Positions 10,969-62,211 of a stretch of DNA of 62,668 nucleotides are shown piece after piece. The stretch comes from a virus (taxonomy: Duplodnaviria; Caudoviricetes). The position numbers and the translations under genes were made by a program. The stretch lies in IMG/VR virus record IMGVR_UViG_3300032330_000840, positions 1 through 62,668 of that record, one strand, 5' to 3'. The notes below the pieces were generated by a model, which saw nothing but the letters and a program-made list of their open reading frames with translations, was not told the DNA's origin and searched no databases. Positions within the stretch are counted from its first letter, which is position 1. Every line of letters begins with the position of its first letter.

Positions 10969-11024
10969 ATACCCTACCTACTGATGAAGACTACCTTGCG
11001 GCTCTTGGCCCTTGCGGTAAATGA
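10965..11024 (+). CDS. 19-aa micro-ORF between the LexA-like gene and terL
   Basis: MNTLPTDEDYLAALGPCGK*; ATGA overlaps at both ends, GAGGA SD. Confidence 0.45.
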   Translation: MNTLPTDEDYLAALGPCGK

Positions 11025-12520
11025 ATATTGATGCACTGAGTAAGGCTATTGCTCTTCTTCCTGTTAATGAGCAGGAGGCGTTCTTTGATGAGCTGGATGA
11101 GTACCGGGCCAGTCTTTTGCGCGAGGAGGCGCAGGAGGACTTCTTGAAGTTTGTTCACACAATGTGGCCGGGCTTTATTGATGGACGCCACCATAAGGTT
11201 ATGGCTCGTAAGTTCCAGGAGATTGCGTCGGGGAAGATTAAGCGGCTGATTATCAATATGCCACCCCGCCACACAAAGTCCGAGTTTGCTTCTTACATGT
11301 TGCCCGCCTGGTTCTTGGGCAAGTTCCCTAACAAGAAGATCATCCAGACTTCAAACACGGCTGAATTGGCTGTTGGATTTGGCCGGAAGGTGCGTAACCT
11401 TGTTGGCAGTGAGCAGTACTCAAAGATCTTCCCTAACGTGAATCTGCGCCAGGATAGTAAGGCGGCTGGCCGTTGGTCGACGAATAAGGATGGTGAGTAC
11501 TTCGCTATCGGTGTCGGCGGAACAGTAACTGGTAAGGGTGCTGATCTATTGATTATTGATGACCCGCACTCTGAGCAGGAGGCCGCGCTTGCTTCCGGAG
11601 ACCCATCAGTGTTTGATAAGGTGTACGAGTGGTACACATCTGGTCCACGCCAGCGTCTGCAGCCGGGCGGATCTATTGTTGTTGTTATGACCCGCTGGGC
11701 CAAACGAGATCTGACGGGCCGGATTATTCAGTCTTCCCTTGATAAGGATGGAAACGACGACTGGGAGGTAATTGACTTCCCCGCCATCCTGCCAAGCGAC
11801 AAACCCCTTTGGCCGGAGTTCTGGAAACTTGAAGAGCTGGAGGCGCTGCGCTCTGAACTGCCAGCCGCGAAGTGGAATGCACAGTACCAACAAAGCCCAA
11901 CCTCTGAAGAGGGCGCGATTGTTAAACGTGAGTGGTGGAAGATCTGGGAGAAGGAAGACCCGCCCCGCTGCGAGTTTGTTATCCAGAGCTGGGATACTGC
12001 TTTCTTGAAGACAGAGCGGTCTGATTACTCGGCTTGCACTACCTGGGGTGTGTTCTACATGAATGAAAACTCCGAGGACGCTCACATCATTCTGCTGGAT
12101 GCATTTAAAAAGCGGATGGAGTTCCCTGAGCTTAAAGCCAAGGCGTTTAACCATTACAAGGAGTGGGAGCCGGATGCGTTTATTGTTGAGGCCAAGGCTT
12201 CAGGAGCGCCGTTGATATTTGAATTGCGGGCGATGGGCATACCCGTCCAGGAATTTACTCCAAGTAGGGGAAATGATAAGATGGTACGGATTAACTCTGT
12301 AGCTGATCTATTTGCCAGTGGTAAGGTTTGGGCTCCGTCAACACGCTGGGCTGATGAATTAATTGAGGAGATGGCTGCATTTCCAAATTCAGACCACGAT
12401 GACTTGGTTGACTCCGCTACCCAGGCACTGATCCGCTTCAGAAAAGGCGGCTTCATTCGGCTGGCAACAGATGAGCAGGATGAAATTCGTTCATTCCGGC
12501 GCAAAACATCGTATTACTAA
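11021..12520 (+). CDS. terL: terminase large subunit
   Basis: MPPRHTKS (Walker A), LLIIDDP, VMTRW, SWDTA, DYSA, VEAKASG, HDDLVDS. Confidence 0.95.
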   Translation: MNIDALSKAIALLPVNEQEAFFDELDEYRASLLREEAQEDFLKFVHTMWPGFIDGRHHKVMARKFQEIASGKIKRLIINMPPRHTKSEFASYMLPAWFLGKFPNKKIIQTSNTAELAVGFGRKVRNLVGSEQYSKIFPNVNLRQDSKAAGRWSTNKDGEYFAIGVGGTVTGKGADLLIIDDPHSEQEAALASGDPSVFDKVYEWYTSGPRQRLQPGGSIVVVMTRWAKRDLTGRIIQSSLDKDGNDDWEVIDFPAILPSDKPLWPEFWKLEELEALRSELPAAKWNAQYQQSPTSEEGAIVKREWWKIWEKEDPPRCEFVIQSWDTAFLKTERSDYSACTTWGVFYMNENSEDAHIILLDAFKKRMEFPELKAKAFNHYKEWEPDAFIVEAKASGAPLIFELRAMGIPVQEFTPSRGNDKMVRINSVADLFASGKVWAPSTRWADELIEEMAAFPNSDHDDLVDSATQALIRFRKGGFIRLATDEQDEIRSFRRKTSYY

Positions 12521-45300: not shown

Positions 45301-48300
45301 CACTACCTTGTGACTCCAGCAGATTTCCTGTTGCAAAATCTCAAGTCCATTGGAAGCCTACCAATTACTCCAAAAACACAAGGTCCTGGAGCCATAAAAA
45401 TGGCTTTGGCGCAGGGGAAAAATACTGAAGTAGAAATGTTGCTTCAGTATTACGTTGAAGCATTAAATGGCTTGCAACAAGTTTTTAATGAACATTCCCG
45501 CGTTGATGCATTAAATGCAGCAATCAAAGAAAAATATATTAAAGATCCGTATTCCGGTAAATTAGCTGAACGATACACGCACGATGGCGTAAATTTGTCA
45601 TCAAAATTCAATAACAAAAATTTGGATTTGGTTAAATTGAATGACAGGTTGTATTCATTGTTTGCAGCCAATGAAGATTCCACTGATCAAACAAAACGTA
45701 TTGTTAAAAAAGATGCTGAATTTCCACCAACTATGGAACGCATTATTCGCCGAGGTATGCGGGATCACCGCCAAGGCCGTCCTGCGGATGTCCAGGATTT
45801 TATTGATACCTTTGGCTTTTTCCCAGGAGGAATTGATTTTGGTAATTGGGTTAACCAGACTGAACGTGCAGACCATTTAAATGCAATCTATGACGCCATG
45901 CATGACTTGGCTGATTTGTCTGGCATCTCTCCCAAGATGTTGGGGTTGGGTCAGCAACTAAAACTAGCAGTTGGAGCGCAAGGCCGCGGCGGCAGAACTG
46001 CAGCACATTACATTGCCAAAGACAACCAAGGTAAATGGGTTAATGAAATAAACCTGACAAAAACTAAAGGTGATGGATCACTGGGGCATGAGTGGCAACA
46101 TGGCCTGGACTTTAACTTGCAGCGTACTGAAAACGGCAAGACGCTAATGGAGGAAACTGCCTCCATGCTTCAAGCTCAAATGAAGCTTGAACTGGTTGAA
46201 GAAACTTTGCGTAACATTTTGAAAAATGTTTCTTCCACCACTGAAAACCGTAACTTACCTCCAAAGAAGGCACTGTTTGCGGCCATTACTCAAGGCCCAT
46301 ACAGTCAGCGCCCATCTATTTATAGCAATGCAACTGAAGATACACAATTTGCGCGTGATGCCCGTGCTTTAGATCGGGAAGAAAACAGGGAGCCAATTTA
46401 TTGGGCATCAAACAAAGAATTGTTGTCTCGTGGATTTGAGGCAATGTTATTTGACGCCTCCAAGGGTGGGTCACCATATCTGGTTGGTCCGGCTGTAGCC
46501 GATGGATACATCAGTAAACCGAATGGATATGCTGGAACAGCGTACCCATCTGGTTCAGAGCGTCCCATTCTGAATGAAATTTTTAAACAGATGCTGGACC
46601 AGATTGATCCGGAAACTTTAAAAGTAAAGACTTACAAAGCTGAAACCCGTATTGTTCACATTGAAGAGCTGGGTTACGCCATCTTGGACCAGCACAACAT
46701 GGGTTCCAGAAATGGTGGATCACTGTTTTGGTATAAAAACAAACAAGAAGCTGAAGATGCCATGGAGTACCGGGAGGGTCGTGAAGAGATTTTGACTCCT
46801 TACCGGCTACAAATTGGAAAAGTCAATGAGCGCATCCTGGATATTGCCAATCGTGTAGATGCAATCATGGATGAAATGGGCTTGTTTAAATGGCCTGAAA
46901 TTAAAAATGACTCCATGTCTGAGTCCATGTTTAACCACATGCGCCAAGGGTGGTGGCCGAAAAGTAACCGTGAGTTAATTGAGTACGGCATTAAAGCGTA
47001 CTTGCAAAAACCAGAGTTGCTTGGTTTCAATCCAATCAAAGACAAGCGTGAAATTGATCAGTACAAAATTGCCGACTTTGAAAATGACCGGGTCAAGCTC
47101 AAGCAAACTCAAGAAGACTTTGAAGCTGCAGCGGTGCGCTATGTTGCTCAGATCATCACCGACATGCGGACAACTGGCTCTGACACCAAAGCCATCTATG
47201 ACCACATTCTTGGCATGTACAAAAACCAGCCCATGCTGGAAATCAAGTCCATCTTGAGTAAGACCAACAATTCTTACTCTACGCCAATGCCGATTGCCTT
47301 CTTGGCTGGTATGTTGGCCCGCGTTAAATCTACTACTACCGTACTTGATCCGACTGGTGGTAACGGCATGTTGGTGGTTTCGGCTAACCCTCGCAATGTT
47401 ACGACCTTTGAAATTGATCCTCACCGCGCCAACAACTTGCAGTTAATGCAATTTGGCAAAGTGGTTGAAGGCGATGCTACTGAAGAAGTAGCCAAGCTGA
47501 AGAATCAAGAAGTTGATGTAGTCTTGGCTCATCCCCCTGCTAGTACCCTATCTTCTGCCATCAATATTAAATCTTGGGACGGCAAGGAATACAAGATTGG
47601 CACGTTGGATCAACAGATTGCTGCGGAGTCTTTACATGCCATAGCTAATGATGGCCGTGCCGTATTGTTGGTACAGGCGCATCCCAACATGGGGACCATT
47701 ACTTCAACAGATAAGCAGTTTTTAAATTGGCTCTACAGCAACTATAACGTAGCAGACCATTTTGAAATTGCGGGCAACTTGTACCATCCGCAAAGTGCCT
47801 CTGCGCCAATGCGTATTTTGGTAATTGCTGGGCGCAACCAAACCGAAAACCTTTACCCAACCAACTTTACGGTTGATCGGATAAATACATTTGATGAACT
47901 TTGGAGTAGATATGTTCAAACCAGTAATCGTAGCGAAAAAGTCGTGGTGGGTGCCGGAAAGAAACGGCCAGCTACTGGCGGTGCAAATAAGCCACGAGGA
48001 GGAGTACCAACAGGCGATACGTTGGAAGATGATGAAAATGGTGCAGGATTGGGGATTGGAGAGGGCGCTGGCGTCGGCGAACCACTACTTACAACAGGAG
48101 GGGGCACTGGCACTTCCGGAACCGGGGGACGCGGAGCAACTGGTAGAAATGGTTCTGGACAACAACAGTCGGATAATGGAGAAGGTCAATCAGGGGGATC
48201 CGGTGGTGTCGGATCCAGCGGAACCGAAGGAGGCCAAGGAAATGGTCCAGGATCAGGAGCTGAACTGGGAGGACTTCCTGACCTAGATGATTTACTAAAC

Positions 48301-51300
48301 TTCATTGACAACTTGGGTGACGATGAAACGCCCAAGAGTAAGCCGCGCACCGCGGGGCCACGCACACCTAGAGGAGATTCCACAGGCAAGGGTGGAACAC
48401 GCGCACCCAGAGCGCCAAAGACTACAGAACTCCCACCTGAGTTCCAGGGCAATCCTGAAATTGAAGCCATTCTCAAAGGGTTAGATGCGGCCATGAAAGG
48501 GACCGCGCCAGCGGAAACCAGTAAAACTACTACTGCGCCCAACAGCCAAGAGCGACTGGATAGTCAAACAAATGATGCGGCTCGTCGTACTGCCCAGCAG
48601 GCTAAGGATGAAAAAAATAATCAAGGCCAGTACTCACGTAAAGGTCAGCATGATTACGCTGATGTTCAGCCATTTATTCAGCAGCTCTGGAATGCTCTTT
48701 CCGGCATGGTAAAAGATGTCAAGCAGCGGTTTTTAAAAATTTATCAAACTTTGGTGCAGCGATATGGAAACGCCATCAAAGAACATTTAAATACCTTTGC
48801 GGCCTCTTTGTACACCAAAGAAAAGAAGGTTCCTAGGAACCAGACTCCGGTTCAGGGAGAGCCAATTGACACTGCATCACGGGTTGTTTATTTGGGCAAG
48901 TCACGCTTCTCGAATGACGGCATTTATTTGCCCCGCGCTCAATCGGAATATGCTTATTCAGCTTTGGAAAATCTGGAAGCACAAGTTGGCGACATCGATG
49001 AATTTGTTGCCAAAGAGTTGGGCTACTCTTCCGTGGAGCAAATGCGCCAACCAACAGATGACCGTAACTCTGGCTTGGCTGGCTACCAAGTTGATGGCCT
49101 GGCTCTGGCTATTCAAGCCAATAAGCTTGGCAAGGGATTCATCATTGGTGATGACACTGGCGTTGGTAAAGGCCGCGCTGCTGCAGCAATGTTGGTATGG
49201 GCTAAGAAGAATGGGAAGATCCCAATTTTTGTTACCCTCAATGACTCTTTGTACTCTGCCATGTATGAAGACCTGACCAGCATTGGGCATGAAGACATCA
49301 AGATTGGAATGACCCATACCGATGGAGTTATTACCAAAGATCTTGGCGGTGGTAAAAGCAAACCTGTTTTCCAGAACAAAGGTTCAGATAGCAAAAAATT
49401 AATTGAGTACATCACCAAGAATGGTGCATTGCCCAAGGGCATGGATGCATTGTTTACGTCCTACTCTCAATTAAATGGCGGGGCAGGATCTCCAGCTCGA
49501 CAACAAGCCATAGCTTCTTTGGTTGCTGCTGGTAAAGCTGTGTTGGTTATGGATGAAGCCCATAACGCAGCAGGTGTTCCATCCGATGATGAAGATTCAA
49601 TGGGCCAAAACGCCTTCTTCATGTCCTTACTGACGGGTAAAAACTTACTTGGTAAAGAAAAAGATGCTCCCGACAACTGGAAGCCACCATCCGCCCTGTA
49701 TCTGTCCGCCACGTTTGCCAAGCGGCCAGACAACATGCCACTGTACATCCACACCAACTTGCGCTATGCAGCCAACACTCCAGAAGAGTTGACCGCATTG
49801 TTTGGTAAGGGTGTGAAGACCGATGTGCTGCAACAAGTATCTTCTGAGATGCTTGTGGCATCTGGTTCCATGTTACGCCGCGAGAGATCGTATGAAGGCG
49901 TAAAAATGAATTTTTTTACAGATGAAGAAAATGCTCCGCGTGACTCCAGGGAGTTTGATAAAGTTACCAACATTCTGCGGTCACTGGTCAATGCAGATCG
50001 CGCTTTAAAGCAATGGGTTAAAAAGCATGAAACCCAAAAAATGCTGGTGGAAACTTTTGGTGGACCAGAAGCCACATTTGGTACAGAAGGTCCAAATGCA
50101 TTCCGTGGAGTTAGTGCTAATCCATTTACATCCGTAGTCCACAACTACATCTCTGACTTATTGCTGTCGACTAAAACTCAAACAACAATCAATATGATTG
50201 TTGACAACATGAACAACGGTGAAAAAGTTGTTGTTGGCTTGAAGAGTACCAGCGGTGCTGCACTAGATGATTATGTTAAAAAAGAAAATATTGCAGTAGG
50301 TTCTGAAATCCAGAATTTTGGTTGGCAAACCATGCTGCAACGTGCAGTTAACTCAACTTTAAGAGCTAACTTACAGTCAGCATCCAAAGACCCGGCAAAA
50401 AATAAACCGATTGATATTCCTGTAGATGCGCTGCCAGGGTATGTAAAAGAAGGTTATGCCAAAGTGGCTGAAATGATTAAGAGTTTCCACTCTGATTTAT
50501 CTGCCGCTCCAATTGATTACATACGGGCAGAATTGCAGAAGAAATATGTCTGGAACATTAATGGAAAAGTCCATGTTGGTGATGAGGCCCCGGCTGGAGT
50601 TAAAGCTCGTCATTTAGTAGTCCGAGAAATTACTGGACGCAATAATGCCATTGACTACAGTGGTGATGTTCCAAAATATATTACGCTGAATCAACCAGAT
50701 CGCGTACAAACTATTTCTCAATTCCAAGACGGAGAAGACTCTGACAAGGGGCCAGTTGATGTCTTGATCATTAACTCTGCTGGCGCTACCGGTATTTCTT
50801 TACATGCATCTGTAAAGGCATTTGACCAGCGTCCTCGCCGGATGATTGTTATGCAGCCACATGGAGACATTAGCGTCTTCATCCAGTTGCTAGGCCGTAT
50901 TCACAGGACGGGTCAAGTTGAGTGGCCCTCCTTTACCATTCTGGCTACTGGCATTCCAGCAGAGCGGCGTATTCTGGCTATGTTGCAAAAGAAGCTTGGC
51001 AGCTTAAAGTCCAATACTTCTGGTGGATCTAGCAGCACCCAGATTGACACTAGTGTTGACTTTATCAACCAGTATGGTGATGTTGCTACATCTTTATACT
51101 TGAATGAACATCCGGAAATTAATGAGTTTTTGGGTGCGCCTAAATATGCCAATCCAGAAAAAGCTGCCGGAACGGACTTGGCGCATAAAGCATCCGGAAC
51201 GGCTGGACTTTTGTCAGTTGTTGATCAGCAAGAGTTTTTTGATTCCATTGAAGCCACTTACTTGGCTGACATTGAACTACGCAACTCTACCGGCACCAAT

Positions 51301-54300
51301 GCCTTGCAGCGCCGTGTGCTTCCTTTGAATGCAGAAATCATTAAAGAGAACTTGATTGAAGAGGGGTTGGACAACTCCAATCCATTTTTGGCAGATGTGG
51401 TAATGGCCCAGTTCAATGTGGACGTTATTGGCTCAACACCTACTCAGCAAGAAATTAAAGATGACATTGCTCAAGCATTGAATGGCCGCACCTCCGACCA
51501 AGTAGTAAAAGAAATTGATGCTGAACTCAACACCATTTTTGTTGAAGTACGTAATCAAATTATTTTGAAGCAGCAAGCTTTGGATGCATCAATTGCAGAT
51601 CCAGAATCTACTGAAAAAGATAGAGCTGAATTTCAAAAATTAAAAAAAGCGCTGGATGAACAATTTGCAACTTTAAATGATCGTAGAAAAAAAACCATAG
51701 ATGCATTAACGTATGACTTCCCTATTGGACAAGGGTTTAAAAAGTTTGAAATGCATGGCGTTCCAGCCAGTGCAGTTGTTATTGGTATTAAGGTGGATAA
51801 AAACCGGATTGGTAAATCCAAAACTGGAAATCCTTATGCGCCATCAAACTTCCAGATAATCTTAAAACGCAATATTCCTGATGGCCGGGTTGCCCCTACT
51901 TTGGCAACACTGGAAGGTAAAAGCATTTATAAAGAAGGACCAACATACTTTCCACCGTTGGATCAGTGGTTTGCTTTAAGGTCTGTAACAGGTGGACGCA
52001 CTACACGATACATTGCGCTTGGAAATATTTTGCGGGCCGCACAACTGTTTGAGTTTTCTGGCGGGGAAATTGCAAAATTTACATTGCAAGACAACAAAGC
52101 AGTTGGCTCGGAATCGGAGTTAGATAAAGAAAAAACATCCATCACTGGCGTGGTAATGCCATCCAGATATAAACCGTTGCCCGTGAGTGCACAGCCAGTT
52201 CGGATGCGTAATGCAGAGTCGTCTGTGCAGTACGTTCTGGCAGCATGGCATGAGTTCTTGCGGCAGAAGTATGAAGACACCCAGTTTGATTCATACAAAC
52301 AGGCGGCTGACAAGGTTAAGCCATTCTTGCTGGACAACCTTCCAGACTTTGGTCCATTTCGGGAAGCTAACCGATATGAGGCAACGATTTTGCGTGGAAT
52401 GAAAAACACATGGGCGCTTACGCTGGATGGTTATCGCCCAAGCAATGGTTTTAGAGTTAGCCTTAATAAAGATGTTCCAAGCAATTTTGTGGAAAAAGCA
52501 CAATTGTTGGTTGGGAAATTGCCAAAAACACGGAACGCTGACTATGAAATGCCTTCCGGGTATTACATTGAGTCTCCTGAAAAAGTTATAGAACTGGTCA
52601 AGTTCTTGCACAAAAACTTCCCTGCTGATGTAGGTGCATCTGAAGCCGAATTGGCGCGTCAGGTGATGAAGGTAGAGTTTCAAAACAATGAGTCCAAGCG
52701 GGGCATGTTGTCCCGGGCGGTAGCCGAAGGTGGGCAAAGCGTTGAGGCTGTGCAGTCTCAACTGTTCCCAATCGAAGGTATCACTGTTAATGTTGTGCAG
52801 TCCGCCGACAACCTTCCGGACGATGCAGCTCCATCAGACGTAGAAGGCGCTTGGTACTCCGGTACTACCGTGTATCTGGTGGCTGATAACCTCCCCAATG
52901 CCAAGCGTGTGCAAGAAGTACTGGCGCACGAGGCTATTGGTCACGCTGCCTTGGAGTCCATGCTTGGACCGGACATGATGAAGGATCTGGTAAAGAAAAT
53001 CCAGACCCTTGAGAAGAACTCTGGCATGATCCAGAAGGTTGCACAGCATGTGGACCGTACACAGCCCGGTCTGTCTGCTGAAAGTCGGGCCAAAGAGATT
53101 GTGGCCGTCATGGCAGAGCGCGGCTTGCACAAAGGGTTGGTCCAACGGGTATTCCAAGCGGTGCGTAACTTCCTGAAGAAGTTGGGCTTCACCATTCAGT
53201 TCTCTGACGGTGATGTGTTGGCCTTGCTCCGCAATGCTGAGAAGTTTGTTGGTGGTCAGTTCAGCCCGGGTGGAGAGGGCCTCTACTCCGTCAACTATAA
53301 AGGCAACCCAGCGCCATTGGCCTCTTTCCAGGCTCCAACAGAGCTGAATAAGCTGGATACCTTCCTGTACAAGTATCAAGACAAGCACATTGATACCAAG
53401 CGCATCCTTGAGATCATCCAGAAGCAAAATGTGGACATCAAGGACAACTGGGATCCGTACCTGAAAGAAGAACTCTATCACGGTAGAGTTGCCAAGCAGA
53501 CCAAGGACTTCATTGAAGATGAGTTCCGTCCTCTGTTGGAGGATATGAACAAACGCAAGATTACAGTTCTGCAGTTTGAGGAGTACCTGCACAACCGCCA
53601 CGCAAAAATTCGTAATGCATTTATTGCGGAGCGCAATCAACGCCCTGACATGCAGGATGGCGGCTCAGGACTCTTTGACACAGAAGTTGATGATTACATG
53701 CAGGATCTGGATACCCAACCAGAACTCAAGAAGAATTTTGAAGAGTTGGCGGAGAAGGTCGATGCAATGGTCAAGGAAACCCAAGACCTCATGGTTTCTA
53801 CCGGTCTGGAAAAGCAAAGCACCATTGATGCGTATCGGGAAAAGCTACCCTTTTACGTGCCACTGAAGCGCGATCCTGATGAGCTGGAGTTTGTCAATGC
53901 AAGCAGCGGCATGGGTCGTGGCTTCAATGTCAAAGGTTCAACCTCTAAGGCCGCTATTGGCTCTCACAAGACCGTTGTCAATATCTTGGGTAACCTGGCC
54001 CTGGAGCGTGAGAAAGTAGTCGTTCGTGGGGAGAAGGCTTTGATTGGCCGTGCGCTGTACGCTTTGGCAATCCAGAACCCCAACACCAACTTCTGGAAGC
54101 CCATCAATCCAGAGGCCATCAAAAACAAGCAGAAGCTTATTGATGAAATGCTGGACATGGACATGACATTGCGTGATGCTGAAAACATCATCCAAGAGTC
54201 CAAGACGGGTCGTCTGGATAAGCAGACTGGGTTGGTTAAGTATGAAATCAACCCCATGCTGCGCGATTCACCTAACGTCCTGGCCGTCAGGATTAATGGG

Positions 54301-56031
54301 GAAGACCGCTATGTATTCTTCAACCCTGGCAACAAGACAGCCTTGCGGATGGTGGAGTCACTGAAGAATCTTGATGCCGCCCAAATGGATGGTTTTATTA
54401 AGCAGGCTTCTGCGGTTACCCGCTTCATTGCGGCAGTAAGTACTCAGTACAACCCTGTCTTTGGCGCGTTCAACTTCTTCCGTGATGTGCAGAGTGCGGC
54501 CATCAACTTGTCCAGCACTCCAATTGCTGACAAGAAGTTTCAGGTGGTAAACGACTCCCGCTCTGCGGTTCGGGCCATCTATCGCAATCTGCGCGGCAAA
54601 CCAGCTACTACTCCGGAGATGCAGAAGTGGATGGATCTGTTTGAGAAATACCAGAATGCTGGTGGTGCAACAGGGTTCCGCGATCAGTTCAGCAAGAACG
54701 ACGAGAAAGAAACTCTTGTTGAGCGTGAGCTTGGACGTTTGAACCGCAACAATGTGAAGAAGGCGGTTGATGCAGTTGCTGATTGGCTTTCCAACTATAA
54801 CGATGCTATGGAGAATGCTGTACGTCTGTCAGCCTTTAAAGCAGCGCTTGATGTTCCGGGCATGTCCGTAGACCGTGCGGCCAGCATTGCCAAGAACCTG
54901 ACCGTTAACTTCAACCGTAAGGGTGCAAGCACTCAAACGATTGGCGCTCTTTATGCGTTCTTCAATGCGGCTGTGCAAGGTAGCGCCAGGTTGGCGCAGA
55001 CTCTTGTTACCCGCAACGCAGACGGAAAACTTCGCCTTAGCCCGGCTGGCATGAAAATTATTGCTGGTGGGGTATTGATTGGTGTTGCACAAACAGCAAT
55101 TCTGGCGATGGCTGGCTTTGGACCTGATGATCCATCCGAGTGGATTAAGGAAAAGAACCTGATCATTCCAACCGGTGGCGGTGGCTACCTGACTATCCCA
55201 ATGCCGCTTGGCTTCAACTTGTTCCCGAACCTGGGTCGCGTGTTGTCTGAGTACATGATGGTTCAGTCTGGAGCCATGAAGGGTAAGCGCGACATCAAGA
55301 AGACCGTAACCTACTTGGCTACCTCTATCTTGGATACCTTCAACCCGCTTGGATCCAGCACCTTTGCACAAACACTAACTCCAACCCTTGTTGATCCGTT
55401 GGTTGCGGTTTCTGAAAACAAAGATGCTTTTGGTCGCCCCATCTCCAAGGAAGACCGGGGTCTGAAACCTACTCCGGGCTACGAGCGCAGCCGTGATTCA
55501 GCCAATGGATTGAGTCAGGCGATTGCTTATGCGCTGAACTACGTCACTGGTGGCGGGGAAAAGGGGATTGGCTTGATCAGCCCCACCGCTGATCAGCTTA
55601 GCTATATTGCCGGTCAATACACTGGTGGAGTTGGTAAGCTGGGCATCCAGAGCTACGAATACGCCAAGTCCAAAATTACCGGTGATGAGGTCCAGTCATA
55701 CCAAGTTCCAGTTGCTGGAAAGCTGTATGGTGACATCAATACTCCTGCCGCAATATCCGGCAAGTTCTACGAGAACCTGAAGGATATGTCGCAGCACGAG
55801 CGCATCATCAAGGACATGAAGGGTAAGGGCGTAGCAGAGTACATAAAAGAAAACCCTGAAGCCGCATTGCGGAACAGGGCTAACTATGTTGAAAATGAAA
55901 TTGTCCGCCTGAAGAAAGAGAAGAAGGCTTTGGTAGAAAGAAACGCTCCGGACGAGCAGATCAAACGCAAAGATGATCGAATCAAGGAGCTGATGGACAA
56001 CTTTAACAAGTCGGTTATAAAACTCCAATGA
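42313..56031 (+). CDS. 4572-aa polyvalent protein (DarB/DdrB-like): LPD1-like, MTase fold, Strawberry-notch-type SF2 helicase, zincin-like peptidase, LPD38-like
   Basis: IDFGNWV..HEWQH; VLDPTGGNG..HPPA; GDDTGVGKG, DEAH, SAT, QLLGRIHRTG; HEAIGH; IPMPLGF..NKDAFGRPI. Confidence 0.85.
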   Translation: MPIYEYKGQQYDISTDDPAAAKAKILSYLDTQPIASEEVATAPPEPQTGFSAFGPAVMRGVRGLASLTGDVAPAMIAKAVGANDYAKQQMKEAAAYQKETEALYPSAVPSFTNIKGAGDALTYIVEAVGEAIPTLIPSLFTGGAAAVAGRGAVAAARVAAEKAATTSMAAGVTAEAAKDIALKAGVDAAKREALKYEVAGALVGSAAQNIPDVYQGLYEKGYDNLPVALAFGAFNSVLDAVTPINLLRKSKLAGIPENEIIGAWYKRAGKGALEGMVSEGATEAIQEMSSAAAEKFVDSNNDFFTAQNFERFINAGLKGGLGGAGISAATNVAFGRKEAEETPPGGLASLPTATPIPPTNAPIVATTTVQQGGKTSIKVTRSDGSVDIDGVQVTPPTGPVAPTGGIATLTPQEITDEESQDQQQLIDEANQILGTPAVTPVTVEQPQDITDLLPKPPAIEGKPSGIETPEAEQTETQRPAEPETPVITGGPAIPPVVTPKQPELNPPATPANPPATPAEKTDLEKIHEAYATYKGKDYQGTKELADFKVGRLQEVANEKNTPIKVWMHQGQIVTTGADVERPKGARLIGTINPVIEQKPETTAGPSIPAGGKPTEEQAPIEEPKNAPSEEAPPESPTDEAPAEAPAEESTEGAAPAEEAPTEVPTEEAPVEGTAPTEEGTETPATPTETTEEGAAPATPPAATPEEGGEKPAEGGTTAGPSTPAKTKQKQVWHILYKSGRQANGRAVNIDFDTEQEAKEHLNKNFTAPWEYKIKAKTIDVPVETTAGPAKPPKVKLTDEEKAKAAEEKKAADEAKAKAAEEKAAADKAEEERKKKLEEFNKQPMKVAMDEGDAAKVAELLYGKTVSEEFFPSMQTEGLIRIPVELKDVAAIETALKKYGFTINGADVFTSNDPSTPGPERVTISAVYKPEKVSIQGGGAEFIGNRKGKVTAPPVPKNPTDVAISKMLAAASKDALLDIHSNVNNSFGAMMYKEGLAHYLVTPADFLLQNLKSIGSLPITPKTQGPGAIKMALAQGKNTEVEMLLQYYVEALNGLQQVFNEHSRVDALNAAIKEKYIKDPYSGKLAERYTHDGVNLSSKFNNKNLDLVKLNDRLYSLFAANEDSTDQTKRIVKKDAEFPPTMERIIRRGMRDHRQGRPADVQDFIDTFGFFPGGIDFGNWVNQTERADHLNAIYDAMHDLADLSGISPKMLGLGQQLKLAVGAQGRGGRTAAHYIAKDNQGKWVNEINLTKTKGDGSLGHEWQHGLDFNLQRTENGKTLMEETASMLQAQMKLELVEETLRNILKNVSSTTENRNLPPKKALFAAITQGPYSQRPSIYSNATEDTQFARDARALDREENREPIYWASNKELLSRGFEAMLFDASKGGSPYLVGPAVADGYISKPNGYAGTAYPSGSERPILNEIFKQMLDQIDPETLKVKTYKAETRIVHIEELGYAILDQHNMGSRNGGSLFWYKNKQEAEDAMEYREGREEILTPYRLQIGKVNERILDIANRVDAIMDEMGLFKWPEIKNDSMSESMFNHMRQGWWPKSNRELIEYGIKAYLQKPELLGFNPIKDKREIDQYKIADFENDRVKLKQTQEDFEAAAVRYVAQIITDMRTTGSDTKAIYDHILGMYKNQPMLEIKSILSKTNNSYSTPMPIAFLAGMLARVKSTTTVLDPTGGNGMLVVSANPRNVTTFEIDPHRANNLQLMQFGKVVEGDATEEVAKLKNQEVDVVLAHPPASTLSSAINIKSWDGKEYKIGTLDQQIAAESLHAIANDGRAVLLVQAHPNMGTITSTDKQFLNWLYSNYNVADHFEIAGNLYHPQSASAPMRILVIAGRNQTENLYPTNFTVDRINTFDELWSRYVQTSNRSEKVVVGAGKKRPATGGANKPRGGVPTGDTLEDDENGAGLGIGEGAGVGEPLLTTGGGTGTSGTGGRGATGRNGSGQQQSDNGEGQSGGSGGVGSSGTEGGQGNGPGSGAELGGLPDLDDLLNFIDNLGDDETPKSKPRTAGPRTPRGDSTGKGGTRAPRAPKTTELPPEFQGNPEIEAILKGLDAAMKGTAPAETSKTTTAPNSQERLDSQTNDAARRTAQQAKDEKNNQGQYSRKGQHDYADVQPFIQQLWNALSGMVKDVKQRFLKIYQTLVQRYGNAIKEHLNTFAASLYTKEKKVPRNQTPVQGEPIDTASRVVYLGKSRFSNDGIYLPRAQSEYAYSALENLEAQVGDIDEFVAKELGYSSVEQMRQPTDDRNSGLAGYQVDGLALAIQANKLGKGFIIGDDTGVGKGRAAAAMLVWAKKNGKIPIFVTLNDSLYSAMYEDLTSIGHEDIKIGMTHTDGVITKDLGGGKSKPVFQNKGSDSKKLIEYITKNGALPKGMDALFTSYSQLNGGAGSPARQQAIASLVAAGKAVLVMDEAHNAAGVPSDDEDSMGQNAFFMSLLTGKNLLGKEKDAPDNWKPPSALYLSATFAKRPDNMPLYIHTNLRYAANTPEELTALFGKGVKTDVLQQVSSEMLVASGSMLRRERSYEGVKMNFFTDEENAPRDSREFDKVTNILRSLVNADRALKQWVKKHETQKMLVETFGGPEATFGTEGPNAFRGVSANPFTSVVHNYISDLLLSTKTQTTINMIVDNMNNGEKVVVGLKSTSGAALDDYVKKENIAVGSEIQNFGWQTMLQRAVNSTLRANLQSASKDPAKNKPIDIPVDALPGYVKEGYAKVAEMIKSFHSDLSAAPIDYIRAELQKKYVWNINGKVHVGDEAPAGVKARHLVVREITGRNNAIDYSGDVPKYITLNQPDRVQTISQFQDGEDSDKGPVDVLIINSAGATGISLHASVKAFDQRPRRMIVMQPHGDISVFIQLLGRIHRTGQVEWPSFTILATGIPAERRILAMLQKKLGSLKSNTSGGSSSTQIDTSVDFINQYGDVATSLYLNEHPEINEFLGAPKYANPEKAAGTDLAHKASGTAGLLSVVDQQEFFDSIEATYLADIELRNSTGTNALQRRVLPLNAEIIKENLIEEGLDNSNPFLADVVMAQFNVDVIGSTPTQQEIKDDIAQALNGRTSDQVVKEIDAELNTIFVEVRNQIILKQQALDASIADPESTEKDRAEFQKLKKALDEQFATLNDRRKKTIDALTYDFPIGQGFKKFEMHGVPASAVVIGIKVDKNRIGKSKTGNPYAPSNFQIILKRNIPDGRVAPTLATLEGKSIYKEGPTYFPPLDQWFALRSVTGGRTTRYIALGNILRAAQLFEFSGGEIAKFTLQDNKAVGSESELDKEKTSITGVVMPSRYKPLPVSAQPVRMRNAESSVQYVLAAWHEFLRQKYEDTQFDSYKQAADKVKPFLLDNLPDFGPFREANRYEATILRGMKNTWALTLDGYRPSNGFRVSLNKDVPSNFVEKAQLLVGKLPKTRNADYEMPSGYYIESPEKVIELVKFLHKNFPADVGASEAELARQVMKVEFQNNESKRGMLSRAVAEGGQSVEAVQSQLFPIEGITVNVVQSADNLPDDAAPSDVEGAWYSGTTVYLVADNLPNAKRVQEVLAHEAIGHAALESMLGPDMMKDLVKKIQTLEKNSGMIQKVAQHVDRTQPGLSAESRAKEIVAVMAERGLHKGLVQRVFQAVRNFLKKLGFTIQFSDGDVLALLRNAEKFVGGQFSPGGEGLYSVNYKGNPAPLASFQAPTELNKLDTFLYKYQDKHIDTKRILEIIQKQNVDIKDNWDPYLKEELYHGRVAKQTKDFIEDEFRPLLEDMNKRKITVLQFEEYLHNRHAKIRNAFIAERNQRPDMQDGGSGLFDTEVDDYMQDLDTQPELKKNFEELAEKVDAMVKETQDLMVSTGLEKQSTIDAYREKLPFYVPLKRDPDELEFVNASSGMGRGFNVKGSTSKAAIGSHKTVVNILGNLALEREKVVVRGEKALIGRALYALAIQNPNTNFWKPINPEAIKNKQKLIDEMLDMDMTLRDAENIIQESKTGRLDKQTGLVKYEINPMLRDSPNVLAVRINGEDRYVFFNPGNKTALRMVESLKNLDAAQMDGFIKQASAVTRFIAAVSTQYNPVFGAFNFFRDVQSAAINLSSTPIADKKFQVVNDSRSAVRAIYRNLRGKPATTPEMQKWMDLFEKYQNAGGATGFRDQFSKNDEKETLVERELGRLNRNNVKKAVDAVADWLSNYNDAMENAVRLSAFKAALDVPGMSVDRAASIAKNLTVNFNRKGASTQTIGALYAFFNAAVQGSARLAQTLVTRNADGKLRLSPAGMKIIAGGVLIGVAQTAILAMAGFGPDDPSEWIKEKNLIIPTGGGGYLTIPMPLGFNLFPNLGRVLSEYMMVQSGAMKGKRDIKKTVTYLATSILDTFNPLGSSTFAQTLTPTLVDPLVAVSENKDAFGRPISKEDRGLKPTPGYERSRDSANGLSQAIAYALNYVTGGGEKGIGLISPTADQLSYIAGQYTGGVGKLGIQSYEYAKSKITGDEVQSYQVPVAGKLYGDINTPAAISGKFYENLKDMSQHERIIKDMKGKGVAEYIKENPEAALRNRANYVENEIVRLKKEKKALVERNAPDEQIKRKDDRIKELMDNFNKSVIKLQ

Positions 56032-58554: not shown

Positions 58555-58572
58555 TTTTTTTCCTAAAAGGTG

Positions 58573-58631
58573 GGGTGTTGTGTCTGACCCTTCAAATCAG
58601 GAGGCAACTATGACCTCGACGCCAACACCCC
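58573..58631 (-). ncRNA. candidate three-way-junction RNA upstream of erf
   Basis: GGGGUGUUG/CAACACCCC closing stem; inner GAGG/CCUC and CUGAUU/GGUCAG arms. Confidence 0.5.
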
Positions 58632-60759: not shown

Positions 60760-61074
60760 ATGGCCGTCACAACAACGCAGCGCAGCCTCAAGTACATGAG
60801 GGACAACGGCTTCTACGCAGAGGTGGTGGAGCGGTACAACTCCTTCACAAAGCGCAAGAATGACTTTGCTGGCTTCATTGACATCCTGTGCCTGGGGCAG
60901 GGTGCGGTGATTGGGGTGCAGACCACGAGCTGGGGACACACATCAGACCGGTTGAAGAAGATCCTTGAGCACGAGAACCTGGACATCGTGCGTGACGCCG
61001 GTATCAAGATCGAGGTCCACGGCTGGCATAAGAAGGACAACCGTTGGCAGGTAAAAATTATCCATGTAGAATAA
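60760..61074 (+). CDS. small PD-(D/E)xK nuclease, Holliday-junction-resolvase-like
   Basis: TQRSLKYMR..G..AEVVE, DFAGFIDIL, GVQTTS, IEVHGW. Confidence 0.75.
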   Translation: MAVTTTQRSLKYMRDNGFYAEVVERYNSFTKRKNDFAGFIDILCLGQGAVIGVQTTSWGHTSDRLKKILEHENLDIVRDAGIKIEVHGWHKKDNRWQVKIIHVE

Positions 61075-61111
61075 AGCCGTGCTTCTCTCCTTGGCTCTTT
61101 ACGGAGTCCTT

Positions 61112-61139
61112 GACCCCTGGGAAACTGGGGGTCTTCTTT
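61112..61139 (+). terminator. probable intrinsic terminator
   Basis: GACCCCTGG-GAAA-CTGGGGGTC followed by TTCTTT. Confidence 0.65.
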
Positions 61140-61151
61140 AACAGCTGTTAG

Positions 61152-61482
61152 AGTCAACGCGCATGGGGATTGATCTCGGCAAACAAGGTAGGCGTGGGCA
61201 GGAACGATAAGCCCGTTACCACGCACAGTCTCCAGCCGTGTTGGTTAAACCTGAAGGGCAACTGCGTAGCGGAAGCCCCGAAACTGTCCCTGTGAAGGTA
61301 GCGCTGCCGATGAACGGGTTACCCTTGCTGGATTCATGGGGCCAACAACTAACACGCATGGGGATTGTTCCTAGCTACTATTTGGAATAGTCACCAGCCG
61401 TGTTGGTGGTCTATCGGGTTAGCGCCGGTATGCTCAACTCCAAGGTTGTTTCATAACACACTGCTTCATGTGAGCCACCAAC
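61152..61482 (+). ncRNA. chain of four overlapping structured RNA units (A1-B-A2-C)
   Basis: Direct repeats CGCATGGGGATTG (61160, 61355) and CCAGCCGTGTTGGT (61232, 61394) that pair with each other; GUUGG/CCAAC closing stems. Confidence 0.7.
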
Positions 61483-61502
61483 AAATATTTTTCAAAAAGA
61501 TC

Positions 61503-61530
61503 TTGCACACCACAAAAATTGGTGTATAGT
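61503..61530 (+). promoter_or_regulatory. sigma70-like promoter
   Basis: TTGCAC-16 nt-TATAGT with an A/T-rich upstream tract. Confidence 0.6.
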
Positions 61531-61537
61531 GATCCCC

Positions 61538-61634
61538 GTTGCAGTCGTGTGCAATAGATTGAAAGCCGTTACTCATGCATTGGCCTCTAGGGATTCTTGG
61601 AGGACACGACCCAGTGCAGTAGTAACGGCTTTTT
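61538..61634 (+). ncRNA. C4/CI-like antisense RNA with upstream target hairpin
   Basis: 12-bp and 8-bp stems around a CA/GU loop; bulge ACACGAC (61604-10) complementary to GUCGUGU (61544-50); U tail. Confidence 0.7.
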
Positions 61635-61639
61635 GCATT

Positions 61640-61965
61640 TGCGCGGCAACCGGACTCCATCCGTAGCAAGTGGTTGTATCGCCAGCGTGGAAGAAAAGAC
61701 AGAACCTCGGTGTGACCCGCACCTCCGAAGTAGCGCAAGCCAAAAGGAATAAACAAGATTGTCAGCAATGACACAAACCCTAGTACGCTGGGAGATGATC
61801 GACAAGCCGGTGAGAACTGGCTTTATCGGGATTCCAGGGGAGGGCGGCATGGCCTGCCGTAGACTGCTTAACAACCAGTCATCCGCATCTTGATAAAGAG
61901 TCGTAGACCATCCAGCCAATACCAGGGGAGGGAGGGTAGACGGGTAAGAGGGACTAGCAGTGATG
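61640..61965 (+). other. non-coding structured region with GNRA hairpins and G-tracts (ncRNA or origin)
   Basis: UGUCA-GCAA-UGACA, AAGCCGGU-GAGA-ACUGGCUU, CCAGCGU/ACGCUGG; no credible ORF. Confidence 0.5.
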
Positions 61966-61974
61966 ATGTAACAG

Positions 61975-62004
61975 TTGACATTGCTGGAATTCATGTGTTA
62001 TGAT
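61975..62004 (+). promoter_or_regulatory. near-consensus sigma70-like promoter
   Basis: TTGACA-18 nt-TATGAT with TGn extension. Confidence 0.75.
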
Positions 62005-62022
62005 ATTGCCAAGGAGCAAACA

Positions 62023-62211
62023 ATGATTGATTGGATGAAGAACCTGTGCCGCCCACCATCCCCACAAGCGATGGCGTTGCGTGAACTTGAGATAGCCAAA
62101 CGGGAGAAGCTTGATGCTGAATCCGGTGTGGACTATGCAAAGTCCGTTGTGGACTACAACAATGCTCGTATTGAGCGCCTCGAAAACTTTCTTTATGGAG
62201 AGACAAAATGA
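62023..62211 (+). CDS. hypothetical protein
   Basis: AAGGAG SD; PSPQAMALRELE.A.R..L.AES..DYA..YN.ARIERL. Confidence 0.75.
   Translation: MIDWMKNLCRPPSPQAMALRELEIAKREKLDAESGVDYAKSVVDYNNARIERLENFLYGETK

What the first reader, a model, noticed from the sequence alone, without database searches (positions are those of the whole stretch)
61152..61482. Chain of overlapping small-RNA units with a constant scaffold and variable interior
Seen: unit A1 (61152-61246) and unit A2 (61349-61406) share left (CGCAUGGGGAUUG) and right (CCAGCCGUGUUGGU) arms that pair around a 2x2 CA/GC internal loop, but enclose unrelated inserts (59 vs 26 nt between the repeats). Each is followed by a different unit, B (61240-61346) and C (61402-61482), closed by GUUGG...CCAAC. 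The 5' strand of B and C is the same sequence as the 3' strand of the preceding A unit, so neighbouring folds compete. G-U pairs favour the + strand. The ACN-CA-UG/CA-GY-NGU loop signature recurs in the C4-like RNA at 61571-61623. Inference: an expandable cassette of processed small RNAs (antisense guides, decoys or anti-immunity RNAs), or a chain of RNA switches. I do not recognise it as a named family. This is my best candidate for an undescribed system.
Basis: partly seen in the sequence, partly recalled or inferred. Interest (0 to 1): 0.85.

Follow-up and report, generated by a model that had tools for sequence, protein, structure and literature searches.

The report
Modular phage small-RNA array, variable cargo
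A phage non-coding stretch holds a chain of small folded RNA units, long hairpins alternating with tRNA-like folds, that keep constant stems around highly variable interiors; the same building blocks recur in many uncultured freshwater phages and match no described RNA family.

Summary
A1 (61153-61245) and A2 (61348-61407) share a 9-bp lower stem, a 2x2 CA/GC loop and a 9-bp upper stem around unrelated 59- and 26-nt interiors. The scaffold recurs in 72 of 152 sources examined (97 units, 72 interior types). Covariation supports it (8 of 18 pairs changed on both sides; 0 of 500 shuffles), and so does a clear + strand bias.

B and C are real too. They begin with the preceding A unit's GUUGGU and end in CCAAC(A). 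C belongs to a cloverleaf-like family with a 7-15 bp closing stem, two hairpins and a covarying loop-loop pair (12 of 19 pairs covary).

In one relative, Rfam's tRNA model scores the unit in this position. In others, real tRNA-Met genes follow the array. The same interiors turn up in different scaffolds. Unit number differs between close relatives (0-3 A units).

Arrays usually sit just after sigma-70-like promoters. They end at an RBS, a tRNA or a U-run. Rfam 15 has no match, and five literature searches found none.

Best reading (0.45): a co-transcribed, processed array of scaffolded small RNAs with exchangeable cargo. Expression, processing and function are not shown.

The parts
61112..61140 (+). 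Intrinsic-terminator-like hairpin plus U-rich tail after the upstream 104-aa gene (60760-61074)
   Evidence: Terminator scan, (9 pairs, 6 G-C, tail TTCTTTAACA). Conserved in relatives.
61146..61154 (+). Candidate extended -10 element (TGTTAGAGT) for the array. Uncertain: it overlaps the first bases of A1.
   Evidence: Found by eye. TGTTAnAGT is conserved 5-7 nt before the first A unit in L002, L006, L011 and L013. The consensus scan did not call it because there is no -35.
61153..61245 (+).
   Evidence: Model R1 scores 57.8 bits. Covariation. RNAalifold predicts the same stems.
61240..61346 (+). Unit B: closing stem GUUGGU (shared with A1) / GGCCAAC, with internal hairpins. Rare type: three examples (window, L016, L174).
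   Evidence: RNAalifold keeps 27 pairs; 4 pairs changed on both sides in a swapped hairpin tip.
61348..61407 (+). Unit A2: same scaffold as A1, with a 20-nt interior beyond the upper stem (26 nt between the repeats)
   Evidence: z -5.6. Model R1 scores 59.6 bits.
61402..61482 (+). Unit C: cloverleaf-like RNA. P1 GUUGGUGGU/GCCACCAAC (5' strand shared with A2), P2 hairpin with loop GUUAGCG, variable middle, P3 CAC[UGCUUCAU]GUG, and a loop-loop pair AGC:GCU.
   Evidence: Model R2 scores 77.4 bits. Covariation.
61483..61492 (+). A-then-U-rich run (AAAUAUUUUU) directly after C's closing stem; a possible end of the array transcript
   Evidence: Arrays in relatives that have no gene downstream also end in U-runs (12 of 62).
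61503..61530 (+). Candidate promoter (TTGCAC, 16 nt, TATAGT) of the next small RNA
   Evidence: Found by eye and conserved in relatives. Not called by the scan, because the -35 matches only 3 of 6.
61537..61635 (+). Small RNA: a 5' hairpin, then a long hairpin (arms 61562-61583 / 61611-61632) that carries the same ACN-CA-UG / CA-GY-N'GU internal loop and a variable tip, then a U-run
   Evidence: Rfam gives only sub-threshold microRNA matches.
58572..58631 (-). Related unit on the other strand, just upstream of the RBS of the ERF-family gene: closing stem GGGGUGUUG/CAACACCCC around the same two-hairpin interior that sits inside an A scaffold in L016

Best explanation
The stretch 61146-61492 is read as a non-coding RNA gene made of four modules in a row.

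Two kinds of holder alternate. The A holder is a ~20-bp stalk, 9 bp + a CA/GY 2x2 loop + 9 bp. The second holder is a tRNA-like closure: an acceptor-like stem that is most often 7 bp, beginning GUUGGU and ending ACCAAC-A. Each holder encloses a small folded 'cargo' domain drawn from a large pool that phages exchange.

Shown by the analysis:
- the folds, and that they lie on the + strand;
- their conservation and covariation;
- the tRNA-likeness of the second holder;
- the same cargo appearing in different holders;
- the turnover of units between close relatives;
- the placement just after promoters.

Inferred only:
- The array is transcribed as one precursor. The A stalk forms first and holds the GUUGGU strand.
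- A double-strand-specific nuclease of the RNase III kind cuts at the conserved internal loop, or the downstream ACCAAC strand displaces the stalk's outer helix. Either event frees GUUGGU to close the next unit.
- Host tRNA-processing enzymes then trim the units (RNase P before the G of GUUGG, 3' trimming after the unpaired A).
- The holders provide folding insulation, processing signals and stability.
- The variable cargo does the work in trans, most likely binding host or phage proteins or RNAs in phage-host conflict.
For: A scaffold:
- On 41 units, one per interior type, 95.9% of cells pair. 8 of 18 pairs changed on both sides (21 cells). 0 of 500 shuffles reach this, and slid controls pair 31-45%.
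- RNAalifold predicts the same stems on its own.

Strand:
- Model R1 scores about 40-69 bits for most places on one strand and 19-40 bits for the same places on the other. The window's reverse strand does not reach E 0.01.
- The folding energies agree.

Spread and variability:
- 97 units in 72 of 152 sources, with 90 distinct interiors in 72 similarity types.
- The terminase large subunits next to arrays are as little as 24% identical.

C family:
- 22 matches to model R2, each on one strand only, none on the opposite strand.
- 96.3% of cells pair. 12 of 19 pairs changed on both sides (56 cells), including the loop-loop pair (A-U 18, G-C 4). 0 of 500 shuffles.
- P1 is 7-15 bp in 19 of 19, with 14 variants.

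tRNA link:
- The unit after an A unit in L113 scores 39.3 bits on Rfam tRNA (gathering score 29). It has acceptor, D and T arms, and 53 nt in place of the anticodon arm.
- Real tRNA-Met(CAU) genes start 13-14 nt after the array end in 4 of 62 arrays. L107 also has a tRNA there.
- The closing helix is at least 7 bp in 57 of 78 distinct units, with 7 bp the commonest length. The next base is A in 71 of 78.

Cargo exchange:
- The L016 A3 interior also sits in the window's minus-strand hairpin at 58572-58631.
- The L147/L038 interior hairpin also sits in a different holder in L016/L015.
- The L061 A unit encloses a whole C core.

Turnover:
- L002 has 96.5% identical flanks but one A unit with a different interior. 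Six loci brought in by the flanking gene (L004, L005, L007-L010) go straight from terminator to the small RNA.

Transcription context:
- A sigma-70-like promoter lies within 250 nt upstream on the same strand in 26 of 58 arrays, against 5 of 58 on the opposite strand and 6 of 58 in control windows.
- Arrays end at an RBS plus start codon (15 of 62), a U-run (12 of 62) or a tRNA (4 of 62).
Against: - There are no expression data. No RNA run holds the stretch, so transcription, ends and processing are unproven.
- The window's own promoter is doubtful. The scan calls none before A1 and calls a terminator at 61112-61133.
- The thermodynamic fold of the whole 346-nt stretch keeps both A stalks closed and does not close C. 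The proposed refolding therefore needs cleavage or kinetics.
- The arms are conserved in sequence, not just in pairing. That fits protein or DNA recognition as well as an RNase III site, and RNase III needs no such sequence.
- The internal loop is closed to Watson-Crick pairs in L015.
- The outer part of the A lower stem has most of the unpaired cells (23 of 30) and only one compensated change. RNAalifold leaves three of its pairs out.
- The window's B and C are not recognised as tRNA at E up to 10, and ARAGORN finds no tRNA in the window.
- No target or partner of any cargo was found.
- Collection bias: units were picked by requiring both arms and at least 13 of 15 pairs. Alignment A5 was fitted to the model. 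Many loci are close relatives, so the covariation cells are not independent events.
Confidence: 0.45

Rival explanations
1. Cis-acting leader. The chain is a co-transcriptional switch or stabiliser for the downstream operon. The mutually exclusive helices (A outer stem versus the next unit's closing stem) would act as attenuator, antiterminator or 5'-end protection, and the interiors would be mostly unconstrained filler.
For: - Arrays lie right after promoters (26 of 58) and end about 16-50 nt before an RBS and start codon in 15 of 62.
- In the window and in L036/L103 an intrinsic-terminator hairpin lies just before the first unit.
- The shared GUUGG strand gives true alternative pairings.
- In A-first arrays the -10 element ends 9-13 nt before the stalk, so the stalk would be a 5'-terminal hairpin.
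- The unit at 58572-58631 sits directly before the RBS of the ERF-family gene.
Against: - The window's array is followed by a U-run and then a separate promoter-like site and small RNA, not by a gene.
- Close relatives have 0 to 3 A units, so no fixed switch is needed.
- The interiors are themselves conserved within types, covary, and reappear in other holders and on the other strand.
- Real tRNA genes follow some arrays.
Confidence: 0.2
2. Decayed and shuffled remnants of phage tRNA clusters. The closing stems and stalks would be what is left of pre-tRNA processing signals, kept because they still allow neighbouring tRNAs or mRNAs to mature. The interiors would have no function of their own.
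For: - One unit still scores as tRNA with its anticodon arm replaced.
- tRNA-Met genes lie next to arrays.
- The closing stem is most often 7 bp and is followed by an unpaired A.
- T-arm-like hairpins occur inside some interiors (seen by eye: L097, L113, L106, L052).
Against: - The C family keeps a covarying loop-loop pair and invariant loop sequences across 22 members. That points to selection on the fold itself.
- Identical small cargo hairpins are kept in unrelated holders, with compensated closing pairs.
- Most arrays have no tRNA next to them (58 of 62).
- The A scaffold is nearly invariant across phages whose terminases are 24-36% identical.
Confidence: 0.2
3. DNA-level element. The arms would be imperfect terminal inverted repeats or single-strand DNA hairpin sites, of the miniature-transposon or integron-attC kind, used by a recombinase to insert and exchange small cassettes. 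The RNA folds would be a by-product.
For: - The arms are near-palindromic and conserved in sequence (the reverse strand still scores 19-40 bits).
- Interiors are replaced outright between relatives with 87-96% identical flanks.
- Every module is bounded by the same short core in alternating orientation.
- The layout (outer helix, small unpaired spacer, inner helix, variable tip) resembles a folded attC site. This resemblance is recalled, not tested.
Against: - There is a consistent one-strand bias with conserved G-U pairs, for example U-G in 36 of 41 at one position.
- Cargo orientation follows the direction of transcription, not the orientation of the flanking core. The C core has the same orientation inside the GUUGG...CCAAC closure and inside the A scaffold, whose flanking core runs the other way (CCAAC...GUUGG).
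- Arrays point the same way as promoters and downstream genes.
- No recombinase family recurs among neighbours within 4 kb. The commonest clusters look like terminase, ERF, nuclease, HNH and ParB-like proteins, judged by eye from the sequences.
- The covarying loop-loop pair in C has no DNA rationale.
Confidence: 0.1

Closest known systems
Phage tRNA gene clusters with co-transcribed small stable RNAs, such as the T4 tRNA region with its extra 'species 1/2' RNAs (recalled, not checked here)
   Same: Several small structured RNAs lie in a row in a phage accessory region. Their 5' and 3' ends pair in acceptor-like stems, they sit next to real tRNA genes, and host tRNA-processing enzymes presumably cut them out.
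   Different: Here most units are not tRNAs. Two holder types alternate and share a strand. The interiors are extremely variable and move between holders. There are no tRNA genes in the window at all.
Bacterial and phage Y RNAs (YrlA) bound by Rsr/Ro60 (PMC4201824, passages read)
   Same: Modular non-coding RNAs in which a stem formed by the 5' and 3' ends carries a protein-binding site and the interior mimics tRNA. They are sometimes tandem and are found in phages.
   Different: No TROVE/Rsr gene in this genome. By eye, the arms lack the Rsr-site motif that the paper gives (GNCGAAN0-1G). No Rfam Y RNA or YrlA match at E up to 10.
RNase III processing stalks, as in T7 early mRNA sites and the stems flanking rRNAs (recalled)
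   Same: About two helical turns of duplex are interrupted by a small internal loop, placed between functional RNAs in a polycistronic transcript. The sites within one genome resemble each other in sequence.
   Different: Cleavage is untested. The stalk here encloses variable cargo instead of a simple loop. Its sequence is conserved across very different phages. One relative (L015) closes the internal loop.
tRNA-linked small RNA units of murine gammaherpesvirus 68, in which tRNA-like RNAs are followed by hairpins and cut by tRNA 3' processing (recalled)
   Same: tRNA-like folds and hairpins alternate in repeated units of a viral genome, with tRNA enzymes used to dice them.
   Different: That is a eukaryotic virus using RNA polymerase III and the microRNA pathway. 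No sequence or structural homology was tested or is expected.
C4 antisense RNA of phages P1/P7
   Same: A small phage RNA hairpin with its own promoter and terminator in an early or immunity-type region.
   Different: No Rfam match to any C4-type family at E up to 10. No complementary target longer than 12 nt in this genome.
TIGR and CRISPR guide arrays (TIGR-Tas: PMC12045711, seen only as a search listing with abstract)
   Same: Tandem units in phages have conserved edges and variable parts, which suggests processed RNAs with variable specificity.
   Different: Interiors are 20-104 nt, of no fixed length, and folded. Unit types are mixed. No recurrent associated protein was seen within 4 kb (by eye; not scanned against Cas or Tas profiles).

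Membership tests
Any Rfam 15 family | Match at or above the family's gathering score | tested here: not met
   0 matches in the whole window. At E up to 10 over 60900-62100 there were only sub-threshold microRNA, sRNA and lncRNA matches, none on A1, B, A2 or C.
tRNA (RF00005 / ARAGORN) | Cloverleaf with acceptor, D, anticodon and T arms that scores above threshold | tested here: not met
   Window: no ARAGORN gene and no tRNA match at E up to 10. The unit in the same position in relative L113 does score: 39.3 bits against a gathering score of 29, with the anticodon arm replaced by 53 nt. So the class is tRNA-like, but the window's units are not members.
Y RNA / YrlA | Encoded near an Rsr (TROVE) gene | tested here: not met
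   No TROVE match in the 62.7-kb genome, while the controls rang in 2 genomes. A host-encoded Rsr cannot be excluded.
Y RNA / YrlA | Rsr-site motif GNCGAAN0-1G in the terminal stem (PMC4201824), and a covariance-model match | tested here: not met
   The motif is absent from both arms on reading. No Rfam match.
C4 antisense RNA (P1/P7) | Match to the Rfam C4 model, with loops complementary to a target in the same phage | tested here: not met
   No match at E up to 10. The best complement of the small RNA elsewhere in the genome is 12 nt (E 0.29).
RNase III processing stalk | About 20 bp of duplex with a central internal loop between RNAs of one transcript | tested here: met
   9 bp + a 2x2 loop + 9 bp, conserved and covarying.
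RNase III processing stalk | Cleavage by RNase III at or near the internal loop | not testable with these tools
   No RNA data.
Integron attC site / other single-strand DNA recombination hairpin | Nearby integron-type integrase; extrahelical bases in the inner helix; core sites at both ends | tested here: inconclusive
   No recurrent recombinase among neighbour clusters (by eye; no profile scan was run). There are no bulged bases in the scaffold. The end motifs only partly resemble the core consensus, which is recalled. The strand bias would fit either RNA or one DNA strand.
CRISPR / TIGR arrays | Regular repeat-spacer units of fixed length with an associated effector gene | tested here: not met
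   Interiors are 20-104 nt and the holder types are mixed. No tandem regularity. Effector genes were not searched with profiles.

The most novel reading that the evidence does not exclude
The phages carry a natural RNA 'display' system. A large, horizontally shared pool of small folded RNA domains is plugged into interchangeable holders: a sequence-conserved stalk with a CA/GY loop, or a tRNA-like closure. The holders are strung into arrays through shared GUUGG/CCAAC strands and are diced by host rRNA- and tRNA-processing enzymes. The hypervariable cargo would act as decoys, sponges or aptamers against host defence or rival phages. That would make this an RNA counterpart of protein anti-defence islands, and the stalk motif would be the handle for a still unknown binding protein or nuclease.
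Probability: 0.25. Interest if true: 0.92.

Novelty: new variant of a known kind. Interest (0 to 1): 0.8.

Why it matters
In one capped sample, 63 of 120 loci pulled out by a single 14-mer carried the full scaffold. The design principle is unusual: constant holders with exchangeable, very diverse cargo.

- It would give a natural precedent for tRNA-scaffold and stalk-scaffold RNA expression.
- It offers a handle for finding new RNA-protein interactions in freshwater phage-host pairs. The conserved ACN-CA-UG / CA-GY-NGU loop is shared by two holder types.
- It is a candidate RNA-based layer of phage-host conflict.
- The covariance models built here make the family searchable.
- The shared-strand architecture gives a directly testable model of ordered folding and processing.

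Tried and rejected
- Rfam at gathering score and at E up to 10: nothing on the units.
- ARAGORN on the window: no tRNA.
- blastn of the 949-nt gap and of A2+C at E up to 10 against 50,697 cultured-phage records: only three chance 23-nt matches in Erwinia jumbo phages. No cultured relative is known.
- Antisense idea: blastn-short of the two interiors, B, C and the small RNA against the window gave at most 11-12 nt matches (E 0.19-1.1), which is chance level.
- All 97 interiors against 1.23 Mb of loci with the arrays masked: the longer matches I inspected (5 of 13) were the same cargo in another unit or holder, except one 18-nt match left unexplained (L130/L049); no antisense target was found.
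- Y RNA idea: no TROVE gene and no Rsr motif.
- Sequencing runs: no RNA holder listed; 20 DNA holders, mostly labelled freshwater metagenome. Read laying was not used because only assembled DNA contigs were on offer.
- Genome-contig scan with a 19-mer: 8 hits. 4 are real and all lie on 2-3.4 kb contigs of metagenome bins (3 Burkholderiales, 1 Flavobacterium bin). The other 4 lack the left arm and are chance. This is only a weak hint at the host.
- More B units: a 16-mer scan of viral contigs gave 15 loci. Only L174 was new (L168 is the L016 contig); the rest were chance matches in coding DNA.
- Motif scan of the window for other holder types: mostly noise. The candidates at 57621 and 56587 lie inside densely coding DNA and were dropped.
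- No array lies upstream of the window's terminase; 10622-11020 holds a small ORF.
- The MAFFT alignment of the C family (A3) misplaced the 3' strands of long closing stems. It was replaced by my own pairing table and a model-based alignment.
- Five literature searches found no description of this array. PMC10690425 (passages read) lists 8,495 candidate structured RNAs from IMG/VR in supplementary files that I could not open, so single units of this family may already be catalogued there.
Full report
**Setting.** The window is a 62.7-kb virus record rated 98% complete. It has a large terminase subunit at 11021-12520 and a portal at 12529-15033. It also has a 4572-aa polyvalent protein. The finding lies in a 950-nt gap without credible ORFs (61075-62022). 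The gap sits between a 104-aa gene of no Pfam family (60760-61074, +) and small + strand genes starting at 62023. Upstream, on the minus strand, lie a PD-(D/E)XK nuclease gene and an ERF-family gene.

They enclose 59 and 26 nt. Each A unit folds into a 9-bp lower stem, a 2x2 loop (CA opposite GC) and a 9-bp upper stem. The + strand folds much better than the - strand: -35.5 against -26.2 kcal/mol for A1, and -28.2 against -15.8 for A2. B and C are closed by GUUGGU.../...CCAAC, and that GUUGGU is also the 3' strand of the preceding A unit. Only the GUUGG strand is shared.

**Relatives of the A scaffold.**
- The upstream gene brought in 31 related viral loci.
- A strict search for both arms found 15 A units in 11 of these loci, with 39-82 nt between the arms.
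- Covariance model R1 found forward matches in 11 of the 26 relatives searched, at 1 to 3 copies each. It found exactly two in the window, at 57.8 and 59.6 bits.
- The region is a mosaic of modules. L002 has flanks 96.5% identical to the window but a single A unit with a different interior, followed directly by a C unit.
- Six loci (L004, L005, L007-L010) pass from the terminator straight to the small RNA.
- L016 shares B at 87% identity but has other interiors on both sides of it.

**Spread beyond the relatives.**
63 of them carry the complete scaffold.
- With a relaxed search I collected 97 units in 72 of 152 sources. They have 90 distinct interiors of 20-104 nt in 72 similarity types.
- The phages are diverse. 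The terminase genes that follow many arrays are 24-99% identical to each other (median 36%), and some are 67% identical to the window's terminase.
- No cultured phage carries the scaffold.
- In 185,579 species genomes, the only real matches are four short contigs of freshwater metagenome bins.

**Is the A scaffold a structure?**
- I aligned 41 units, one per interior type, with MAFFT and without fitting to any structure. On this alignment 95.9% of cells pair and 8 of 18 pairs changed on both sides (21 cells). No shuffle out of 500 reaches this, and slid controls pair only 31-45%.
- RNAalifold predicts the same two stems and the same internal loop without being told.
- Conserved wobble pairs (U-G in 36 of 41 units at one position) would be A-C mismatches on the other strand.
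- Model R1 scores about 30 bits less on the reverse strand of the same places.
- Caveat on selection: I chose units by requiring both arms and at least 13 of 15 pairs. That inflates the paired percentage but not the compensated changes.
- Caveat on the outer lower stem: it holds 23 of the 30 unpaired cells and has only one compensated change. RNAalifold leaves three of its pairs out.

**The units between the A units.**
- In 87 of 97 cases, the sequence after an A unit reaches a CCAAC-type end within 300 nt.
- These X units fall into recurrent families. Each family again has conserved ends and a variable middle.
- The closing helix has at least 7 consecutive pairs in 57 of 78 distinct units, and 7 bp is the commonest length. 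My search rule guaranteed only 5 of those pairs. The next base is A in 71 of 78.

**The C family.**
- The window's C belongs to the best-sampled family.
- It has P1 of 7-15 bp, a P2 hairpin with loop GUUAGCG, a 24-37-nt variable middle, and a P3 of 3 bp with an 8-nt loop.
- It also has a loop-loop pair that changes from A-U to G-C in step.
- Model R2 finds 22 members, each on one strand only, none on the opposite strand.
- On the model-fitted alignment, 12 of 19 pairs changed on both sides (56 cells) and 0 of 500 shuffles reach this.
- P1 varies freely beyond GUUGGU and stays paired. In L120 even GUUGG/CCAAC itself changes in step.
- Some C units are first in their array, right after a promoter and with no A unit before them.
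- The closing helix of C is therefore real, and it uses the strand that A2 also needs.
- The layout matches a tRNA cloverleaf: a closing stem, two hairpins whose loops touch, and a variable arm between them.

**B.** B is rare, with three examples. RNAalifold keeps its closing stem and finds one hairpin tip swapped with full compensation.

**Links to tRNA.**
- Rfam's tRNA model scores the X unit that follows the A unit in L113 at 39.3 bits. It has the acceptor stem GUUGGUG/CAUCAAC, D and T arms and an unpaired A, but 53 nt stand where the anticodon arm should be.
- Real tRNA-Met(CAU) genes begin 13-14 nt after the last unit in L013, L052, L093 and L120. L107 also has a tRNA there.
- The window's own B and C do not score as tRNA.

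**Cargo moves between holders.**
- A two-hairpin interior of the third A unit of L016 recurs in the window on the minus strand at 58572-58631. There it sits inside a different closing stem, just before the RBS of the ERF-family gene. One hairpin stem covaries while its 7-nt loop is kept.
- A small hairpin inside the A units of L147 and L038 recurs inside another holder type in L016 and L015, with a compensated closing pair.
- The A unit of L061 encloses a complete C core: P2, middle and P3.
- The interiors are therefore units of selection in their own right, and the stems around them are interchangeable.

**The neighbouring small RNA.** The hairpin at 61562-61632 has a promoter-like site (by eye) and a U-run. 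It carries the same internal-loop motif as the A stalk, a covarying flanking pair and a variable tip.

**Transcription context.**
- Sigma-70-like promoters lie within 250 nt upstream on the same strand in 26 of 58 non-redundant arrays. The figures are 5 of 58 for the opposite strand and 6 of 58 for control windows. Distances cluster at 9-13 nt (A unit first) or 46-151 nt (another unit first).
- Arrays end 16-50 nt before an RBS and start codon in 15 of 62, at a U-run in 12, at a tRNA in 4, otherwise in 27, and without a recognisable end in 4. My parsing of ends is rough.
- In the window, the scan calls a terminator at 61112-61133 and no promoter before A1.
- A conserved TGTTAnAGT lies before the first unit in the close relatives and may be an extended -10 element. 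In the window it abuts A1, so the true 5' end is open.
- After C comes AAAUAUUUUU and then the next promoter-like site. The window's array therefore looks like a stand-alone RNA of about 340 nt.

**What it most likely is.** I read the array as a co-transcribed chain of scaffolded small RNAs. Three points are shown. The folds are real and lie on the + strand. The holders are of two kinds, one of them tRNA-like. The cargo is exchangeable and turns over fast. The rest is inferred. The stalk has the shape of an RNase III processing site: about 20 bp with a central loop, between RNAs of one transcript. Cutting it, or strand displacement by the downstream ACCAAC, would free GUUGGU to close the next unit. 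That unit would then be trimmed like a pre-tRNA.

The thermodynamic fold of the whole stretch keeps the A stalks closed, so this order of events is plausible but not required. The function of the cargo is unknown. I found no complement in the phage genome and no partner. The high diversity and rapid replacement, at positions where phages keep accessory genes, point to a role in conflict with hosts or other phages. That is inference only.

**Known families.**
- Nothing in Rfam 15 matches.
- It is not a Y RNA: there is no TROVE gene, no Rsr-site motif and no model match.
- It is not a C4-type RNA.
- It is not a CRISPR- or TIGR-like array.
- A DNA-level reading (inverted-repeat cassette sites) is weakened by the strand bias, by cargo orientation following transcription, and by the covarying tertiary pair. 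It is not excluded.
- Five literature searches found no description.
- A 2023 catalogue of candidate structured RNAs from IMG/VR may contain single units in supplements I could not read.

**Verdict.** The finding is real, widespread and structurally well supported, and as far as I could check it is undescribed. Its mechanism and function remain hypotheses. No RNA data were available.

Noticed in passing
window 61647-61960 (+): About 310 nt of non-coding sequence is more conserved among relatives (91-96% for 61641-61800) than the neighbouring protein gene (84-89%). Substitutions show no three-base periodicity. It contains two copies of a 17-nt repeat holding CCAGGGGAGGG, 88 nt apart. It could be another structured RNA or a DNA site such as a replication origin.
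   Followed up: partly
window 58572-58631 (-): A hairpin unit directly upstream of the RBS of the ERF-family gene, with closing stem GGGGUGUUG/CAACACCCC. Its interior is the same two-hairpin cargo found inside an A scaffold in L016. Units of this system therefore also occur singly inside operons on the other strand.
   Followed up: partly
window 61537-61635 (+): A small RNA candidate with a promoter-like site, a 5' hairpin, and a long terminator hairpin that shares the A-stalk loop motif. Its tip varies among relatives (L006, L011, L013, L055, L093, L122).
   Followed up: partly
window 42313-56031 (+): A 4572-aa ORF with LPD1, LPD38 and Strawberry-notch-type helicase domains. This is a 'polyvalent protein' of the kind described in phages and conjugative elements (that description is recalled).
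   Followed up: partly
L013 1689-1760, L052 3810-3881, L107 3716-3787, L120 8315-8466, L093: tRNA genes follow the arrays within 13-14 nt. ARAGORN calls Met (anticodon CAU) in L013, L052, L093 and L120. It is always the same anticodon in the four loci where I looked.
   Followed up: partly
L052, L079, L097, L107, L120, L121, L142; L006, L011, L033, L095, L097, L100, L106, L133, L138: Two further recurrent holder families have conserved ends and variable middles. One begins GAAAGCGGAUGC and ends GUAGCGAGUAGCCAACA. The other begins GAAUGCGCAGGCUGAUGCGC and ends in a hairpin before CCACCAACA. Neither was modelled.
   Followed up: no
window 61136-61153 (+): An 11-nt palindrome (CTTTAACAGCT/AGCTGTTAGAG) lies between the terminator and A1. 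Relatives have a different palindrome at the same place (L016, L017). It overlaps the candidate extended -10 element.
   Followed up: no
window 61975-62004 (+): A strong sigma-70-like promoter (TTGACA, 18 nt, TATGAT, 11 of 12 matches, TG before the -10) lies just before the downstream small genes.
   Followed up: no
L015 4392-4466: An A-unit variant in which the CA/GC internal loop is replaced by two Watson-Crick pairs, with further compensated changes in the lower stem. The loop is therefore not strictly required in every copy.
   Followed up: no
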